From: a virus | Lineage: Duplodnaviria; Caudoviricetes | Virus record (IMG/VR): IMGVR_UViG_3300032030_000030 | Location: 1 to 64,000 of that record | DNA length: 64,000 bases | Reading direction: 5' to 3' (one strand) | Notes under the pieces: generated by a model | Databases searched by the model: none | What the model saw: the letters and a program-made list of their open reading frames with translations, nothing else | Told to the model about the DNA's origin: nothing | Program-made: the position numbers and the translations under genes | In this document: one piece after another, positions 580 to 59,161 of the stretch | How the letters are laid out: the number at the start of each line of letters is the position of its first letter | Position numbering within the stretch: the stretch's first letter is position 1

Positions 580-652
580 GGCTGTGTAGTATAGGGATTA
601 GTACGCCTCTGAGGGTTTGGAGGTAACACTGGTTTGAATCCAGTCGCAGCCA
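580..652 (+). ncRNA. tRNA-like RNA with aberrant anticodon loop
   Basis: GGCTGTG/CGCAGCC acceptor, D arm, ACTGG-TTTGAAT-CCAGT T arm; CCTCT/GGAGG stem encloses GAGGGTTT, not a canonical 7-nt loop. Confidence 0.7.
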
Positions 653-763
653 CTTTTGAGTCTTTTCTTTTATAGTTTATGACGTTACAATGTGGATTAC
701 GTTTAGATTTAGTTTGTGTAATTTGTATTTAAGGTAGAGCGTCGTGAGATGCTCTGCCAAAAT

Positions 764-52399: not shown

Positions 52400-52470
52400 G
52401 GAGATGTAGCTCAATGGCAGAGCGGTTGGCTGTTAACCAGTTAATCGAGGTTCGATTCCTTGCTTCTCCG
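52400..52470 (+). tRNA. tRNA-Asn(GUU)
   Basis: Cloverleaf, loop CTGTTAA, G discriminator. Confidence 0.9.
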
Positions 52471-52522
52471 CAAGTGACCTGTTAAGCCTCTCTACGATGC
52501 TCAAATTTACGGGTCGATATAT

Positions 52523-52593
52523 TGCGAGTTAGAGTAATGGTAACTTGTTTGGTTCATGCCCAAAAGATACAGGTTCGATTCCTGTACTCGCTA
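52523..52593 (+). tRNA. tRNA-Met(CAU), initiator-like
   Basis: Loop TTCATGC, unpaired 1:72 (T:T). Confidence 0.8.
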
Positions 52594-52598
52594 CTATT

Positions 52599-52703
52599 AT
52601 GAAAGAGAAAGTTTTGAACAAGCTGGTAATTGGATTTTTGATAATAGCGATAATAGTTGTTATCTATGCGATTTATTCATTGGTGAAGACTTCGGACCTA
52701 TAA
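52599..52703 (+). CDS. 34-aa membrane peptide
   Basis: MKEKVLNKLVIGFLIIAIIVVIYAIYSLVKTSDL; below ORF-track cutoff; stop lies inside next tRNA. Confidence 0.55.
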   Translation: MKEKVLNKLVIGFLIIAIIVVIYAIYSLVKTSDL

Positions 52704-52767
52704 CTCAGTTGGTCAGAGTAGCAGACTCATAATCTGAAGGTCGCAGGTTCAAACCCTGCTGGGTCCA
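52694..52767 (+). tRNA. tRNA-CAU, probably Ile2 (lysidine type)
   Basis: GGACCTA/TGGGTCC acceptor, loop CTCATAA; body resembles bacterial Ile2 tRNAs. Confidence 0.75.
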
Positions 52768-52781
52768 CTAAAAAAACAATT

Positions 52782-53021
52782 ATGTCAACAAAGAGATTAC
52801 CTCTTACAGGCGACCTTACTTGTGATGTATGGGCTGAAGCTGTAAACGGTTTGATAAATATTGCACGCTATCAAATCGAACTTGGGAATATAGAAAAAGC
52901 AAAAAGAATAGCCTCTGATGTAGGGGAGATATTTGATAAGGCATACAAAGACTGGAAAAGACATTGGGAGATATGTAGCAGCATAGCACCGACATTCATA
53001 CTATTTGCCTGGTGCAAATAG
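52782..53021 (+). CDS. small hypothetical protein
   Basis: ATG ORF with A-rich leader between RNA genes. Confidence 0.6.
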   Translation: MSTKRLPLTGDLTCDVWAEAVNGLINIARYQIELGNIEKAKRIASDVGEIFDKAYKDWKRHWEICSSIAPTFILFAWCK

Positions 53022-53244
53022 AACGGGCTGGCGATTACGAAACGACGGTTTGGTACTTCGCTAAAGCCCAAAAAAGATTACTTGCGCAAGATGCCACTGT
53101 TTCGCGCCTGGAGTACGAAGGCTCTTCAAGAGGACGGCAATGCCGATAACTAAGGTTGGTTGAAGATGCAAGGCATAATGAGAGGACTTCGCTAAGCAAC
53201 AATTCATATGTCCCTCCAACCTAAAAACGGTACAGTGGCTATAA

Positions 53245-53316
53245 GGCTCGTTAGTTCAACGGATAGAACAGGAGTTTTCTAAACTCTCAATGTGGGTTCG
53301 ATTCCCTCACGGGCTA
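53245..53316 (+). tRNA. tRNA-Arg(UCU)
   Basis: GGAGT-TTTCTAA-ACTCT anticodon arm, canonical T arm. Confidence 0.88.
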
Positions 53317-53336
53317 CGAATAAAATTGAAAAGAAA

Positions 53337-53492
53337 ATGGAAGAAAACAAGACGATTGAATTGGAAGACATCGACTTGGAAGACTTTGATATAAAACAAT
53401 TGTTTGTATCGGAGATGATGAGTCAGGAAGAGTTGGATGCAATGTTTAGCGCATTAGACGACATTGATGAGAACGGGATTGCGTCGGAGTGA
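53337..53492 (+). CDS. 51-aa acidic protein
   Basis: MEENKTIELEDIDLEDFD...; stop lies inside tRNA-Tyr. Confidence 0.6.
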   Translation: MEENKTIELEDIDLEDFDIKQLFVSEMMSQEELDAMFSALDDIDENGIASE

Positions 53493-53557
53493 GAGAGCCG
53501 AGGCGGACTGTAAATCCGTTGCTTAATGCTGAGTAGGTGCGAATCCTTCCAGTCCCA
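53475..53557 (+). tRNA. tRNA-Tyr(GUA), atypical D and T loops
   Basis: GCGGA-CTGTAAA-TCCGT, long variable arm, GGGATTG/CAGTCCC. Confidence 0.85.
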
Positions 53558-53601
53558 CTTTTTAGTTCACGTTATTAAATTTTAATATTAATATTGTGGT
53601 T

Positions 53602-53668
53602 GCCTTTATCGTATAGCGGTTATTACGGTTGGAAATAACAGACAGCGGTTCGACTCCACTTAAAGGCT
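53602..53668 (+). ncRNA. anticodon-less tRNA-like RNA
   Basis: GCCTTTA/TAAAGGC acceptor, GTATAGCGGTTATTAC D arm, GGTTCGACTCC T arm; anticodon arm is GTTG-GAAA-TAAC. Confidence 0.8.
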
Positions 53669-53689
53669 CAAATAAAGGAGAAGAAGAAA

Positions 53690-54118
53690 ATGATGACATT
53701 GGAAGAAGCGATACAACACGCAGAGGAGAAAGGTGCTTCAATGCTTATGAATCCAAGGACTGTTGATTGTAACTGTGGATTAGAGCATCTTCAACTTGCG
53801 GATTGGCTCAGACAGTTGAAAACATACTATGAAGATGGAAAGGTTGAAAATGACGGCTATCTTGTAGAGAAGACTGGCTTTGACGGAGAGGAGGTTGAAA
53901 CGAGGCTTTCTTCAAGCAGCAATGTTTTAAGGGTGCGTTTGAAGCAAACTGAGCCGCCATCTATAAATACAATCAGAAGTCTTGTCAGAAGCTATAATTC
54001 GGCAGCAATAGACTCTAATGGCAGGATGCCAAGGGTTATATTCGATTGCAATGAAGAGGATGGAGCATATACGTATGATTTATATGCAACGGCAATTGAC
54101 CCGTTTGCATTGAATTAA
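53690..54118 (+). CDS. hypothetical protein
   Basis: TLEEAIQHAEE...EHLQLADWLRQLK phage-type N-terminus. Confidence 0.75.
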   Translation: MMTLEEAIQHAEEKGASMLMNPRTVDCNCGLEHLQLADWLRQLKTYYEDGKVENDGYLVEKTGFDGEEVETRLSSSSNVLRVRLKQTEPPSINTIRSLVRSYNSAAIDSNGRMPRVIFDCNEEDGAYTYDLYATAIDPFALN

Positions 54119-54206
54119 GGTAGGTTGGCAGAGTGGTCGATTGCAGCTGTTTGCTAAACAGCCGACTGCGAAGAGTGGTCCATAGGTTCAAATCCTGTAC
54201 CTACCG
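54119..54206 (+). tRNA. tRNA-Ser(GCU)
   Basis: Loop TTGCTAA, long variable arm, G discriminator. Confidence 0.92.
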
Positions 54207-54233
54207 CTTGTCGAACTAATAAAATGAAACGAT

Positions 54234-54428
54234 ATGACATTAGGAATCTCTACGATAATATGTTTACTGGTACTAATATTATTCGCTGTCTGCGAAGTAT
54301 GGTGCAAGGTAAAAGACGTTCAAGCAACATTATCTTGGTTGATAGAAAAGATAGGCTATATGCAAGGAATAATTGATATGTATGCAGACGACGAAGACGA
54401 AGATGAAGATGAAAGTCAAAATAATTAA
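54234..54428 (+). CDS. small membrane protein with acidic tail
   Basis: N-terminal hydrophobic helix. Confidence 0.65.
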   Translation: MTLGISTIICLLVLILFAVCEVWCKVKDVQATLSWLIEKIGYMQGIIDMYADDEDEDEDESQNN

Positions 54429-54429
54429 T

Positions 54430-54502
54430 CTGGGTGTAGTACAGTAGGTAGTATGCTTGCTTTGGGAGCAAGAGGTCGCAAGTTCGAGCCTTGCCACCCA
54501 GA
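54430..54502 (+). tRNA. tRNA-Pro(UGG)
   Basis: C1:G72, CTTGC-TTTGGGA-GCAAG. Confidence 0.92.
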
Positions 54503-54517
54503 CTAAAAGGAAGAGAA

Positions 54518-56345: not shown

Positions 56346-56885
56346 ATGATGAAATTGTTTCGTTTGGTAAATTACGAAGTTACCATTTCTGAAGAAGCAC
56401 TTACACTTGCTAAATTCAGAAAAATCTGGGATAGGGATAGGACGCAAGGAAAGTTGAAAGCGCAGCAAGAGTTGGCGTTCATATACTTTTATGCTGACCC
56501 TCGAAGCGATTATGCTGCAATCATAGACGACGAGGACAGGGAGAAGGAAATAAAGAAAGGATTGGGTCTTAAAGACGATTGGGTTATTGACAGGGACTTG
56601 TCTGCGGCTATTGACTTCTATAAATCTTTCAAGCCTACAATCTGTCTTGCTCTCGATGATGCAAGATTGCAGCTTGAAAAGGTAAGGACAAAACTAAGGA
56701 ACATCAGTCTTGAAGATGTGAAGATTAAGGACATTTCTGATTTTATAAAGGCGAATAGTGATGTTAGCAAGGCTATCGACCTTTTCTGCGAAATTGAAAA
56801 GAAAGTGAACAGGGAAATTCAGGAATCGACCAAGATGAGAGGTGTTGCAGAAAAGAAATTGTTTGACGAAGGAATTGATTTGTAA
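56346..56885 (+). CDS. protein coupled to terminase (possible small subunit)
   Basis: TAATG coupling to TerL; helical. Confidence 0.6.
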   Translation: MMKLFRLVNYEVTISEEALTLAKFRKIWDRDRTQGKLKAQQELAFIYFYADPRSDYAAIIDDEDREKEIKKGLGLKDDWVIDRDLSAAIDFYKSFKPTICLALDDARLQLEKVRTKLRNISLEDVKIKDISDFIKANSDVSKAIDLFCEIEKKVNREIQESTKMRGVAEKKLFDEGIDL

Positions 56886-59161
56886 TGCAAAAGTTTAATC
56901 AGTATCAGACTCAACTGTCTGACGAGGACTTCGAGAAACTTCCACAAGAAGTCAGAGAGCAGTTCATCGAATATATAACGAGTGTTCCTTTAATTAAAAG
57001 CTACATAAGCCTTGAAAGGAAAAGGGCGTGTGATATAGAAAAAGACGAGAAGGGAAGGATAAAGGTCGATATAACACAGCCTCACATTTTAGAGGATATG
57101 GATTATTTCAGACCTGCCGCTTTGTACTATAAGGAACACGGATGTTATACGAATCTTACTCCGAACTCTAATAAGAACTCAGACTATGGTAAATGGATTC
57201 GTGAAGAAATACGCCGTTGCTATTATGGATATGTAAGGCCATCTGACGGCGAATGGATAACAGGAGATTACTATTTCTTTCTTAATTATTGCCCTATCCT
57301 TATTTCGGACGTTGACGATTCTGACGATAAGAAAGGCAAGAAGAAAAGGGCTAAACGTGTGATTGATTTTCCATATGTTTGGGAAGGTCACTATTATCTG
57401 TCTCATTATCTTGAACAGGCAAGAAATAATGGACATCACGCTTGTATGCTCGCAAGACGTGGTGCTGGCAAATCATTCTTTGGTGCTGCAAGATTGGCAA
57501 AGCGATTCATCCTTGGCGAAGATGAAGAGGTGAAGAAAAAGGTACAATGTGTCGTAACTGCAAGCGAAAGGAAATATATCATAGGTGCAAACCAAGTGCT
57601 TGATATGTTTCAGTATTACATCGACTTCTGCGCCAACAATACGCAGTTCCCTGCTGCAAGATTGGAGAACACCGCTCAGAATATGAAATGGACGATGGGA
57701 TTCATCGACCAGACTAATGGCACGAAGAAGGGAACTCTTAATTCTGTAATGGGTATTACCTCGAAAGATGATGAATCAAAACTTATCGGTTCTCGTGGTC
57801 AATTGTATCTGATTGAGGAAATGGGTTCATTCCCAAGGTTGCTTGGTATGTATGCTCGTTTGCGACCGTCAGTAGAGGACGGTGAAAATGTGTTCGGGCA
57901 GATTTATATGTATGGAACAGCAGGTGACGATGAAAGCAACTTTTCATCAGCGCAAGAAATTATGTATAACCCTGTCGGCTACAATATGCAAGCCGTTAAG
58001 AATGTATATGACAAGGAAGGTCAAGGAAGACAATATTTTACTTATTTCTTTCCATCGTATATCAATCGGGCAAACTGTTACGATAAGAATGGTAATTCGG
58101 ACGTAATTAAGGCTTTGATAGAAGTATTGCAAGATAGGTATATCACAAAATACAATACAACCGACATTAACTCTATCGTAAAACGTATATCCGAATATCC
58201 TATCACACCTGCCGAGGCTATACTTAGGGCTAATAAAAACCTATTCCCAGTAGTAGAGTTGAACGAAAGGATAAGTCAAATTGACAATGACCCAGGATTT
58301 TACAATGATACATATGTAGGACATTTCGTACAAGTCAAAGACCATATCGAGTTCAGACCATCGACGGACATTCCAATCAGACAATACCCATTGAACGACA
58401 ACAAAGCGGAAGGTGCGGTTGAAATTTACACTATGCCTCAAAAAAACTCTGATGGCGAAGTTCCTGGAGAACGTTACATTATCGGCTATGACCCTGTTGA
58501 TGATGATGAATCTCAAACAATGTCCTTGACGTCTATGTTTGTTCTTGATTTATGGACAGACAAAATTGTTTGTGAATACACTGGACGTAAAAGACTTGCA
58601 GATGATAACTATGAAATAGTAAGACAGGCTTGTATGTTCTTCAATGCAAAATGTTTGTATGAAAATAACAAGAAGGGCATATACTCTTATTTTGCGCAAA
58701 GGAATTGTCTGTACTTGCTTGCAGAAACACCTGAATATTTAAGAGACAAAGACTTGATAAAAGTCATCGGAATAGGTAATAAGGGCAGGGGTGTTAATGC
58801 TACGCTTGGCATAAACAACTATGCGAACTTGTTGATTCAACAGTGGTTGATAAAGCCTGTGACAAATATTGTCGAAGAAGACGGAGAACAAAAGGAAATA
58901 ACAATATCAAACTTATATAATCTCAAAGGACGCGCTCTGATACTTGAACTCATCAAATTTAACCCAGATGGCAACTTTGACCGAGTAAGAGCATTGGGTA
59001 TGGCTATGTTGTACAGAGAAGAGAAGATGATTTTGTATCAGGGAGATATGAGGAACGCTAATAAAAAAGATACTAAGTATCTTGGGAATGACGAGTTCTT
59101 TGTAAAAAACTATACTAAGCATAAACCAAAACGTAATATGTACTTCAATAATATAGTATAG
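56885..59161 (+). CDS. terL: terminase large subunit
   Basis: ARRGAGKS, LIEEMG, YGTAG, nuclease IIGYDPVD, NFDRV. Confidence 0.95.
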   Translation: MQKFNQYQTQLSDEDFEKLPQEVREQFIEYITSVPLIKSYISLERKRACDIEKDEKGRIKVDITQPHILEDMDYFRPAALYYKEHGCYTNLTPNSNKNSDYGKWIREEIRRCYYGYVRPSDGEWITGDYYFFLNYCPILISDVDDSDDKKGKKKRAKRVIDFPYVWEGHYYLSHYLEQARNNGHHACMLARRGAGKSFFGAARLAKRFILGEDEEVKKKVQCVVTASERKYIIGANQVLDMFQYYIDFCANNTQFPAARLENTAQNMKWTMGFIDQTNGTKKGTLNSVMGITSKDDESKLIGSRGQLYLIEEMGSFPRLLGMYARLRPSVEDGENVFGQIYMYGTAGDDESNFSSAQEIMYNPVGYNMQAVKNVYDKEGQGRQYFTYFFPSYINRANCYDKNGNSDVIKALIEVLQDRYITKYNTTDINSIVKRISEYPITPAEAILRANKNLFPVVELNERISQIDNDPGFYNDTYVGHFVQVKDHIEFRPSTDIPIRQYPLNDNKAEGAVEIYTMPQKNSDGEVPGERYIIGYDPVDDDESQTMSLTSMFVLDLWTDKIVCEYTGRKRLADDNYEIVRQACMFFNAKCLYENNKKGIYSYFAQRNCLYLLAETPEYLRDKDLIKVIGIGNKGRGVNATLGINNYANLLIQQWLIKPVTNIVEEDGEQKEITISNLYNLKGRALILELIKFNPDGNFDRVRALGMAMLYREEKMILYQGDMRNANKKDTKYLGNDEFFVKNYTKHKPKRNMYFNNIV

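What the first reader, a model, noticed from the sequence alone, without database searches (positions are those of the whole stretch)
53602..53668. Minimal tRNA whose anticodon loop is replaced by a GAAA tetraloop
Perfect 7-bp acceptor stem, GG-containing D loop and TTCGACT T loop are retained, but the anticodon arm is a 4-bp stem closed by GNRA. A clean stable cap suggests selection rather than decay. It cannot decode. Possible roles (inference): decoy for tRNA-targeting defence nucleases or sensors, synthetase or EF-Tu sink, aminoacyl donor for non-ribosomal transfer, or an RNase P/Z processing signal.
Basis: partly seen in the sequence, partly recalled or inferred. Interest (0 to 1): 0.8.

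Follow-up and report, generated by a model that had tools for sequence, protein, structure and literature searches.

The report
Phage tRNA-Thr gene lacking its anticodon
This 67-base tRNA-shaped element is a gut phage's threonine tRNA gene that lost five bases of its anticodon arm and so cannot read codons; related phages still carry the intact gene, which makes it an ordinary disabled gene copy that may survive only as an RNA-cutting signal.

Summary
Window 53602-53668 (+) has a perfect 7-bp acceptor stem, a GG-containing D arm and a TTCGACT T loop. In place of the anticodon arm it has a 4-bp stem capped by GAAA. Rfam's tRNA model scores it at 36.3 bits; ARAGORN misses it.

It is not a designed minimal tRNA. 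Sixteen related phage contigs from ruminant-gut data hold the same locus between a tRNA-Tyr-like gene and a 142-aa ORF. Five carry a normal tRNA-Thr(UGU) there. Eleven, including the window, carry the same gene minus 5 nt. The deletion lies between TTGT direct repeats, which points to slippage, and a further T>G change turns the loop from UAAA into GAAA.

So this is a decoding-dead allele of tRNA-Thr(UGU). The phage has no other tRNA-Thr, although ACA is its commonest Thr codon.

Whether the crippled copy is still selected is unresolved. Its five private substitutions all spare the fold (crude p about 0.02), but recombination between the alleles blurs every diversity test. My best reading is that it is at most a retained RNase P / 3'-end processing site ahead of the ORF. 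Interest is low to moderate.

The parts
53602..53668 (+). Anticodon-deleted tRNA-Thr(UGU) derivative, 67 nt including discriminator U
   Evidence: Rfam tRNA 36.3 bits. Homologous to intact tRNA-Thr in L043, L047, L048, L049 and L051.
53628..53639 (+). Remnant anticodon arm: 4-bp stem (53628-53631 with 53636-53639) capped by GAAA (53632-53635). The 5-nt deletion maps at about 53631/53632. The T>G change is at 53632. The window-specific C>T at 53636 makes the closing pair G.U.
   Evidence: Alignment A1. Hairpin energies.
53602..53608 (+). Acceptor stem 5' strand, paired with 53661-53667. G1-C72 and C2-G71 are as expected for threonine identity.
   Evidence: PMC9976931 for threonine identity elements.
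53644..53660 (+). T arm: stem with one C.A mismatch, loop TTCGACT. Invariant in all 16 contigs.
53558..53601 (+). AT-rich spacer between the tRNA-Tyr-like gene and the element. Variable, with indels; its proximal part is semi-conserved.
   Evidence: 15 of 50 columns vary among deleted-allele contigs.
53669..53689 (+). 21-nt leader with the ribosome-binding site (AAGGAG) of ORF142, almost invariant in relatives
   Evidence: 1 of 21 columns varies among deleted-allele contigs.
53690..54118 (+). ORF142, function unknown (N-terminus matches phrog_33451). Its stop codon abuts tRNA-Ser at 54119.
53475..53557 (+). Upstream neighbour: tRNA-Tyr(GUA)-like gene missed by ARAGORN. ORF51 (53337-53492) ends 18 nt inside it.
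   Evidence: (34-38 bits in all relatives scanned).

Best explanation
The element is a decoding-dead allele of the phage's own tRNA-Thr(UGU) gene. A 5-nt deletion between the direct repeats TTGT-C-TTGT removed part of the anticodon stem and loop, the kind of lesion replication slippage produces. A second change (T>G, or alternatively a 4-nt plus 1-nt deletion path) left a 4-bp stem with a GAAA loop. Shown here: the origin, the lesion, the loss of any anticodon, the absence of another tRNA-Thr in this phage, and the coexistence of intact and deleted alleles in a recombining phage population of ruminant guts. Inferred: the acceptor stem, T arm and D/T elbow are intact, and these are what RNase P, 3'-end trimming and CCA addition recognise. 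The transcript is therefore probably still cut at both ends of the element. That is the same punctuating role the intact tRNA plays in this tightly packed cluster (tRNA-Arg, ORF51, tRNA-Tyr-like, Thr*, ORF142, tRNA-Ser). Cutting there would free the ORF142 mRNA, which has only a 21-nt leader. No new function is required. If the copy is constrained at all, it is as a processing and structural signal.
For: Five contigs (L043, L047, L048, L049, L051) have an ARAGORN/Rfam-confirmed tRNA-Thr(UGU) at the homologous place, scoring 51.8-54.8 bits. Eleven contigs have the deleted form, scoring 35-38 bits. The direct repeats flank the deletion. All deleted copies share the T>G change. L050 keeps the intact-type variable loop and so looks like an early state. 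G000 has no other tRNA-Thr, yet ACA makes up 44% of its Thr codons. Context: the leader and ribosome-binding site are nearly invariant, and the ORFs abut or overlap tRNAs. A 260-nt contig from a sheep metatranscriptome library matches 53608-53867 without a difference, joining the element to ORF142. Hints of continued constraint: 7 of 67 columns vary among deleted contigs, against 72 of 193 third-codon positions (p = 2e-5) and 15 of 50 spacer columns (p = 0.009). That density equals the intact tRNA-Thr's 6 of 72. All 5 substitutions private to deleted alleles spare pairing and conserved nucleotides, p about 0.01-0.03 under a crude neutral model. RNase P measures the acceptor/T-stem stack and the elbow, not the anticodon (PMC4919913). 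An anticodon-less tRNA-like module is cleaved by RNase P and receives CCA in M. smegmatis YrlA (PMC4201824).
Against: No direct evidence of processing or accumulation. The RNA-library contig may be DNA carry-over, and it shows an uncut junction if it is RNA. The diversity argument is weakened by recombination: C9A and A67G are polymorphic in both allele classes, a four-gamete violation. Low diversity may therefore be inherited from the constrained intact allele, or may reflect a young deletion. Among the closely related L039/L040/L044 the element varies at 3 of 67 sites, whereas the three real tRNAs vary at 0 of 246, which fits relaxed constraint. The window's own copy has a weakened cap with a G.U closing pair. 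The intact tRNA is AU-rich, and neither form folds into the cloverleaf as its minimum-energy structure.
Confidence: 0.55

Rival explanations
1. Plain young pseudogene. The deletion simply killed a dispensable tRNA gene. The remnant has no role at all and persists only because too little time has passed and because it recombines with the constrained intact allele.
For: Intact alleles coexist in the same phage lineage. tRNA content in this phage group turns over quickly. The element varies at 3 of 67 sites among L039/L040/L044 while tRNA-Arg, tRNA-Tyr-like and tRNA-Ser vary at 0 of 246. There are shared polymorphisms between the allele classes. The window copy has a destabilised cap, and L052 has changed its discriminator. 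Predicted tRNA pseudogenes are reported in other phages (PMC1524935).
Against: The deleted allele is the majority (11 of 16 contigs) and occurs in about six accession series from sheep, goat and other ruminant data. All 5 private substitutions are structure-neutral. The second event created a GNRA loop, 1.4 kcal/mol more stable than UAAA. The low-diversity stretch ends at the element's borders.
Confidence: 0.3
2. Neofunctionalised anticodon-less tRNA. The deletion was selected because the RNA now acts in trans, for example as a decoy for a tRNA-directed defence, a sink for a tRNA-binding factor, or a way to avoid presenting a cleavable or sensed tRNA-Thr anticodon loop.
For: The deleted allele is frequent and widespread. 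Two mutational events are concentrated in the former anticodon loop, ending in a GNRA cap. There is a weak signal of retained fold. The same cluster carries a conserved abiF RNA motif, which suggests the region is involved in defence or counter-defence.
Against: No homologue or analogous short-armed tRNA turned up in about 30 more distant relatives or in IMG/VR by a D-loop/T-loop-anchored pattern. Known anticodon nucleases recognise the anticodon loop, which is gone. Threonine identity uses anticodon nucleotides, so charging is unlikely (PMC9976931). There is no partner gene and no expression data.
Confidence: 0.13
3. Assembly or sequencing artefact.
For: None beyond the small size of the lesion.
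Against: The same deletion is present in 11 independently assembled contigs from several projects. A goat-gut DNA contig spans 53501-53816 with no indel listed inside the element.
Confidence: 0.01

Closest known systems
tRNA pseudogenes in phage tRNA clusters (e.g. tRNAscan-SE 'Pseudo' calls in T4-like phages, PMC1524935)
   Same: A tRNA-derived gene in a phage tRNA cluster that cannot function in decoding.
   Different: Here the exact lesion, the intact ancestor-type allele and the population frequency are documented. The rest of the cloverleaf is unusually clean.
tRNA-like module of bacterial Y RNA YrlA (PMC4201824)
   Same: Mimics the acceptor stem, D arm and T arm without a working anticodon. 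The M. smegmatis RNA is cut by RNase P and receives CCA.
   Different: YrlA carries a Ro60/Rsr-binding helix and sits next to rsr. This element is a bare 67-nt cloverleaf remnant with no such helix or gene.
tRNA punctuation and plant-mitochondrial t-elements; mascRNA-type tRNA-like 3'-end signals (from my own knowledge, not checked in papers here)
   Same: tRNA-shaped, non-decoding structures used by RNase P and RNase Z to define the ends of neighbouring transcripts. This is the mechanism I propose for the retained role.
   Different: Those are organellar or eukaryotic. No processing data exist for this phage element.
Viral tRNA-like structures with a short pseudo-anticodon loop (BMV TLS-Tyr, 4-nt loop; PMC9976931)
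   Same: tRNA mimic with a 4-nt loop where the anticodon loop would be.
   Different: BMV TLS is a pseudoknotted 3' end of an RNA genome and is charged by TyrRS, which does not need the anticodon there. Here the parent identity is Thr, which uses the anticodon.

Membership tests
Canonical tRNA (Rfam RF00005) | 7-bp acceptor stem with discriminator, U8, D arm with G18G19, T arm with a T-Psi-C-type loop | tested here: met
   There is one C.A mismatch in the T stem, also present in the intact alleles.
Canonical tRNA (Rfam RF00005) | 5-bp anticodon stem with a 7-nt loop carrying U33 and an anticodon | tested here: not met
   4-bp stem and 4-nt loop. The cmscan alignment shows 9 consensus positions replaced by 4. 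ARAGORN makes no call.
Canonical tRNA (Rfam RF00005) | Score at or above the gathering threshold (29 bits) | tested here: met
   36.3 bits, reached only with sensitive filters. Intact alleles score 51.8-54.8 bits and deleted ones 35.1-37.8.
tRNA-Thr(UGU) lineage of this phage group | Same locus and near-identical sequence to an intact tRNA-Thr(UGU) gene | tested here: met
   There are 3 substitutions plus the 5-nt gap relative to L043.
tRNA-Thr(UGU) lineage of this phage group | Threonine identity set: acceptor pairs 1-72 and 2-71 plus anticodon nucleotides (PMC9976931) | tested here: not met
   G1-C72 and C2-G71 are present. The anticodon nucleotides are absent.
tRNA pseudogene | Derived from a functional gene by a disabling lesion | tested here: met
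   5-nt deletion between direct repeats plus T>G.
tRNA pseudogene | Neutral decay after the lesion | tested here: inconclusive
   7 of 67 variable columns, against 37% at third-codon positions, and all 5 private changes benign. Against this, recombination between alleles and faster change than the real tRNAs among close relatives.
tRNA-like processing signal (t-element / mascRNA-type) | Intact acceptor/T-stem stack and D/T elbow as the RNase P and RNase Z recognition surface | tested here: met
   At sequence level only; PMC4919913 for what RNase P measures.
tRNA-like processing signal (t-element / mascRNA-type) | Cleavage at its ends in vivo, defining neighbouring transcript ends | not testable with these tools
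   Only Logan contigs were available. One RNA-library contig starts at 53608 and runs into ORF142, which is not decisive.
Y RNA (YrlA) tRNA-like module | Ro60/Rsr-binding helix and linkage to an rsr gene | tested here: not met
   The 67-nt element has no extra helix. Its neighbours are tRNAs and small ORFs with no Pfam hit.

The most novel reading that the evidence does not exclude
The anticodon-less tRNA-Thr is not a dying gene but a selected allele. Losing the anticodon loop and sealing the arm with a GNRA cap would keep a stable, processed tRNA-shaped RNA that no longer decodes. Such an RNA could serve as an obligatory RNase P/Z punctuation mark for ORF142, or let the phage escape or distract a host system that senses or cuts tRNA-Thr(UGU). 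The allele has spread by recombination through a ruminant-gut phage population.
Probability: 0.2. Interest if true: 0.6.

Novelty: new member of a known kind. Interest (0 to 1): 0.3.

Why it matters
It resolves an apparently designed 'minimal tRNA' into a dated, mechanistically clear gene-inactivation event, with both alleles still segregating in nature. That gives a rare natural pair for asking what a phage tRNA gene is worth. The phage lost its only tRNA-Thr(UGU) although ACA is its commonest Thr codon, and the loss allele is the more common one. If the remnant proves to be processed and constrained, it would show tRNA genes in phage clusters doing double duty as transcript punctuation, a role that can outlive decoding.

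Tried and rejected
1. tRNA-Cys origin. I suspected this from U73, the D loop and the T loop (recalled resemblance to E. coli tRNA-Cys) and from an odd GCA tRNA-like in L008. I dropped it once L043 showed an intact UGU arm.

2. GenBank phages. No near match, and the distant matches cover only ordinary tRNAs.

3. IMG/VR and JGI metagenomes. An exact 27-mer of the core and a 24-base T-arm/acceptor pattern both gave 0 hits. Relatives were found only through ENA and Logan contigs.

4. Distant ORF142 homologues (35-50% identity, L002-L007). They have no tRNAs nearby.

5. 29 TerL-based relatives at about 60% identity. They have syntenic tRNA clusters, many with tRNA-Thr(UGU), but no sequence homologue and no other short-armed tRNA.

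6. Pattern search for the same D and T loops with a shortened middle. Two unrelated hits in IMG/VR, so no family emerges.

7. Minimum-energy folding. z = -1.33 and the fold is not a cloverleaf. This is uninformative, because the intact tRNA behaves the same way.

8. Read laying. The X5 contigs stop at 53559 and resume at 53685. An X8 contig diverges after 53592. X4 has no cover at 53434-53595. These holes and loose ends cannot be interpreted.

9. The 'valley of diversity' as proof of selection. Rejected as decisive because of four-gamete violations inside the element.

10. My first cloverleaf energy evaluation used a mis-registered bracket string. It was redone.

Full report
**Setting.** The window is the first 64 kb of a 104,696-bp IMG/VR virus record rated complete. 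Here I confirmed only that the 758-aa protein at 56885-59161 is a large terminase (phrog_6681, E = 1e-109). Public runs that hold this stretch come from sheep, goat and bovine gut.

The target lies in a tRNA cluster at 52400-54503 on the + strand. The order is tRNA-Asn, an abiF RNA motif, two tRNA-Met, ORF79, tRNA-Arg, ORF51, a tRNA-Tyr-like gene, the target, ORF142, tRNA-Ser, tRNA-Pro.

**Observation.** The 67 nt at 53602-53668 have these features:
- a perfect 7-bp acceptor stem and U8;
- a D arm with GG in its loop;
- a 4-nt variable region;
- a T arm with loop TTCGACT and one C.A mismatch in the stem;
- discriminator U;
- where the 17-nt anticodon arm should be, 12 nt forming GUUG-GAAA-UAAC.

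ARAGORN does not call it, and Rfam's default filters skip it. With sensitive filters the tRNA model matches end to end at 36.3 bits (gathering score 29) and marks 9 consensus positions replaced by 4. My own acceptor/T-arm scanner finds it as the only tRNA-shaped element in the whole genome that ARAGORN missed. The one correction is that the loop-closing pair is G.U in this window.

**Origin.** GenBank phages, IMG/VR and JGI metagenomes gave no homologue. TerL relatives at about 60% identity have syntenic tRNA clusters but nothing alignable to the element.

Closer relatives came from the protein collection. ORF142 has 18 sequence variants in two 90% clusters. The contigs encoding them keep the same order: tRNA-Arg, ORF51, tRNA-Tyr-like, X, 21-nt leader, ORF142.
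- In five contigs (L043, L047, L048, L049, L051), X is a normal tRNA-Thr with anticodon UGU. It has a 5-bp stem and the loop CUUGUAA, is called by ARAGORN, and scores 51.8-54.8 bits in Rfam.
- In the window and ten other contigs (L039-L042, L044, L045, L050, L052-L054), X is the same gene minus 5 nt.

The intact sequence reads TTGT-C-TTGT at the 5' side of the arm. Removing one repeat unit plus the C gives the observed length, which is the signature of slippage between direct repeats. That alone would leave a UAAA loop. Every deleted copy instead has GAAA, so a second event occurred: a T>G change, or alternatively a 4-nt plus 1-nt deletion route. L050 combines the deletion and GAAA with the intact-type variable loop, so it looks like an early state. 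The window alone has the later C>T at 53636.

The element is therefore a tRNA-Thr(UGU) derivative. My earlier guess of a tRNA-Cys origin was wrong.

**Consequences.** A 4-nt loop cannot present an anticodon. Threonine identity rests on acceptor pairs and anticodon nucleotides (PMC9976931), so charging is unlikely. The phage has no other tRNA-Thr, although ACA accounts for 44% of its Thr codons. It now depends on the host for that tRNA.

**Is the remnant still selected?** Evidence for continued selection:
- The deleted allele is the majority (11 of 16 contigs) and occurs in about six accession series, against two for the intact allele.
- Among nine deleted-allele contigs, 7 of 67 element columns vary. 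Compare 72 of 193 third-codon positions in the flanking ORFs (Fisher p = 2e-5) and 15 of 50 spacer columns (p = 0.009).
- That density equals the intact tRNA-Thr's 6 of 72 in the other contigs (p = 0.77). The low-diversity stretch ends at the element's borders.
- The five substitutions private to deleted alleles are D-loop T>C, C25>U, the closing C>U, variable-loop A>G and U73>C. All spare base pairing and conserved nucleotides. A crude neutral model gives 0.41-0.50 for a single such benign change, hence 0.01-0.03 for five of five.
- GAAA is 1.4 kcal/mol better than UAAA in the cloverleaf.

Evidence against:
- C9A and A67G are polymorphic in both allele classes. Deletion status therefore shows all four gametes with sites 25-30 nt away.
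- ORF142 similarity does not separate the allele classes. Recombination is thus frequent at this scale.
- Low diversity may then be inherited from the constrained intact allele, or may reflect a young deletion.
- Among the close trio L039/L040/L044 the element varies at 3 of 67 sites, while tRNA-Arg, tRNA-Tyr-like and tRNA-Ser vary at 0 of 246.
- The window's own cap is weakened: -0.9 against -3.5 kcal/mol for the isolated hairpin.

I regard the question as open, leaning slightly towards some retained constraint.

**Mechanism.** The cluster is packed. ORF51 ends 18 nt inside the tRNA-Tyr-like gene. ORF142 starts 21 nt after the element, behind an almost invariant AAGGAG leader. Its stop codon abuts tRNA-Ser.

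In such an arrangement the tRNAs are also the cutting sites that separate the mRNAs. RNase P reads the acceptor/T-stem stack and the elbow rather than the anticodon arm (PMC4919913). The anticodon-less tRNA-like module of M. smegmatis YrlA is cut by RNase P and gains CCA (PMC4201824). So the deleted gene should still be excised.

That is the only role it would need to keep, and it demands no new property. A 260-nt contig from a sheep metatranscriptome library matches 53608-53867 exactly. This shows the element and ORF142 on one molecule in that library. It proves neither transcription nor processing.

**Rivals.** A purely neutral relic (0.30) fits the turnover of tRNAs in this phage group and the recombination caveat. 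A new trans-acting role as decoy or sink (0.13) is not excluded. It lacks any support beyond allele frequency, the GNRA cap, and the presence nearby of a conserved abiF RNA motif. An artefact is excluded by 11 independent assemblies.

**Verdict.** This is a real feature with an ordinary explanation: a disabled allele of a known gene, with the intact allele present in relatives. It is a new member of a known kind, of modest interest as a natural intact/deleted pair.

Noticed in passing
window 52478-52514 (+); also L039:1854-1890, L043:1773-1809, L047:270-306, L048:270-306: An abiF RNA motif (Rfam RF03085; 47.9 bits in the window, 52.4 in relatives, gathering score 37) sits between two tRNA genes of the phage cluster and is conserved across relatives. 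A phage-borne copy of an RNA normally found beside AbiF abortive-infection genes could be a counter-defence mimic.
   Followed up: partly
window 53475-53557 (+): A tRNA-Tyr(GUA)-like gene with a long variable arm that ARAGORN misses (Rfam 34.7 bits). It has an unusual T loop (UGCGAAU) and a 10-nt D loop, and is conserved in every relative contig aligned or scanned (34-38 bits where scanned). A U.U in its T stem is a U-A pair in L039-L045. The stop codon of ORF51 lies 18 nt inside it.
   Followed up: partly
window 580-653 (+): A tRNA with an 8-nt anticodon loop. ARAGORN reports a 4-base anticodon 'gggt', and Rfam tRNA gives 44.9 bits. It is either another damaged tRNA or a candidate four-base decoder.
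   Followed up: no
L008:6444-6512 (+): In the closest IMG/VR relative, just after tRNA-Arg(UCU), there is a 69-nt tRNA-like with a GCA anticodon in the loop CAGCAAA. It has a 7-bp anticodon stem, a tiny D arm and U73. Its only Rfam match is weak, to tRNA-Sec (25 bits, E = 0.08).
   Followed up: partly
L023:6028-6101, L034:6077-6153; L021:1868-2257: Related phage contigs carry tRNAs with a CUA anticodon (amber suppressors, called 'Pyl' by ARAGORN). One carries a tmRNA-like gene with the tag ADNTEYRIAA.
   Followed up: no
window 53671 and 54414 (tables 5 and 5c): A sheep metatranscriptome-library contig (depth 41) joins sequence ending at 54414 to sequence starting at 53671 through 14 other letters. 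This suggests a relative in which ORF142 has a different upstream neighbour. Goat contigs also replace 52726-53020 (ORF79) with 101 other letters.
   Followed up: no
L052:428-703: One deleted-allele relative has a 91-aa ORF with a Sequestin domain (PF21825) where the window has ORF79. The slots between tRNAs appear to exchange small cargo genes.
   Followed up: no
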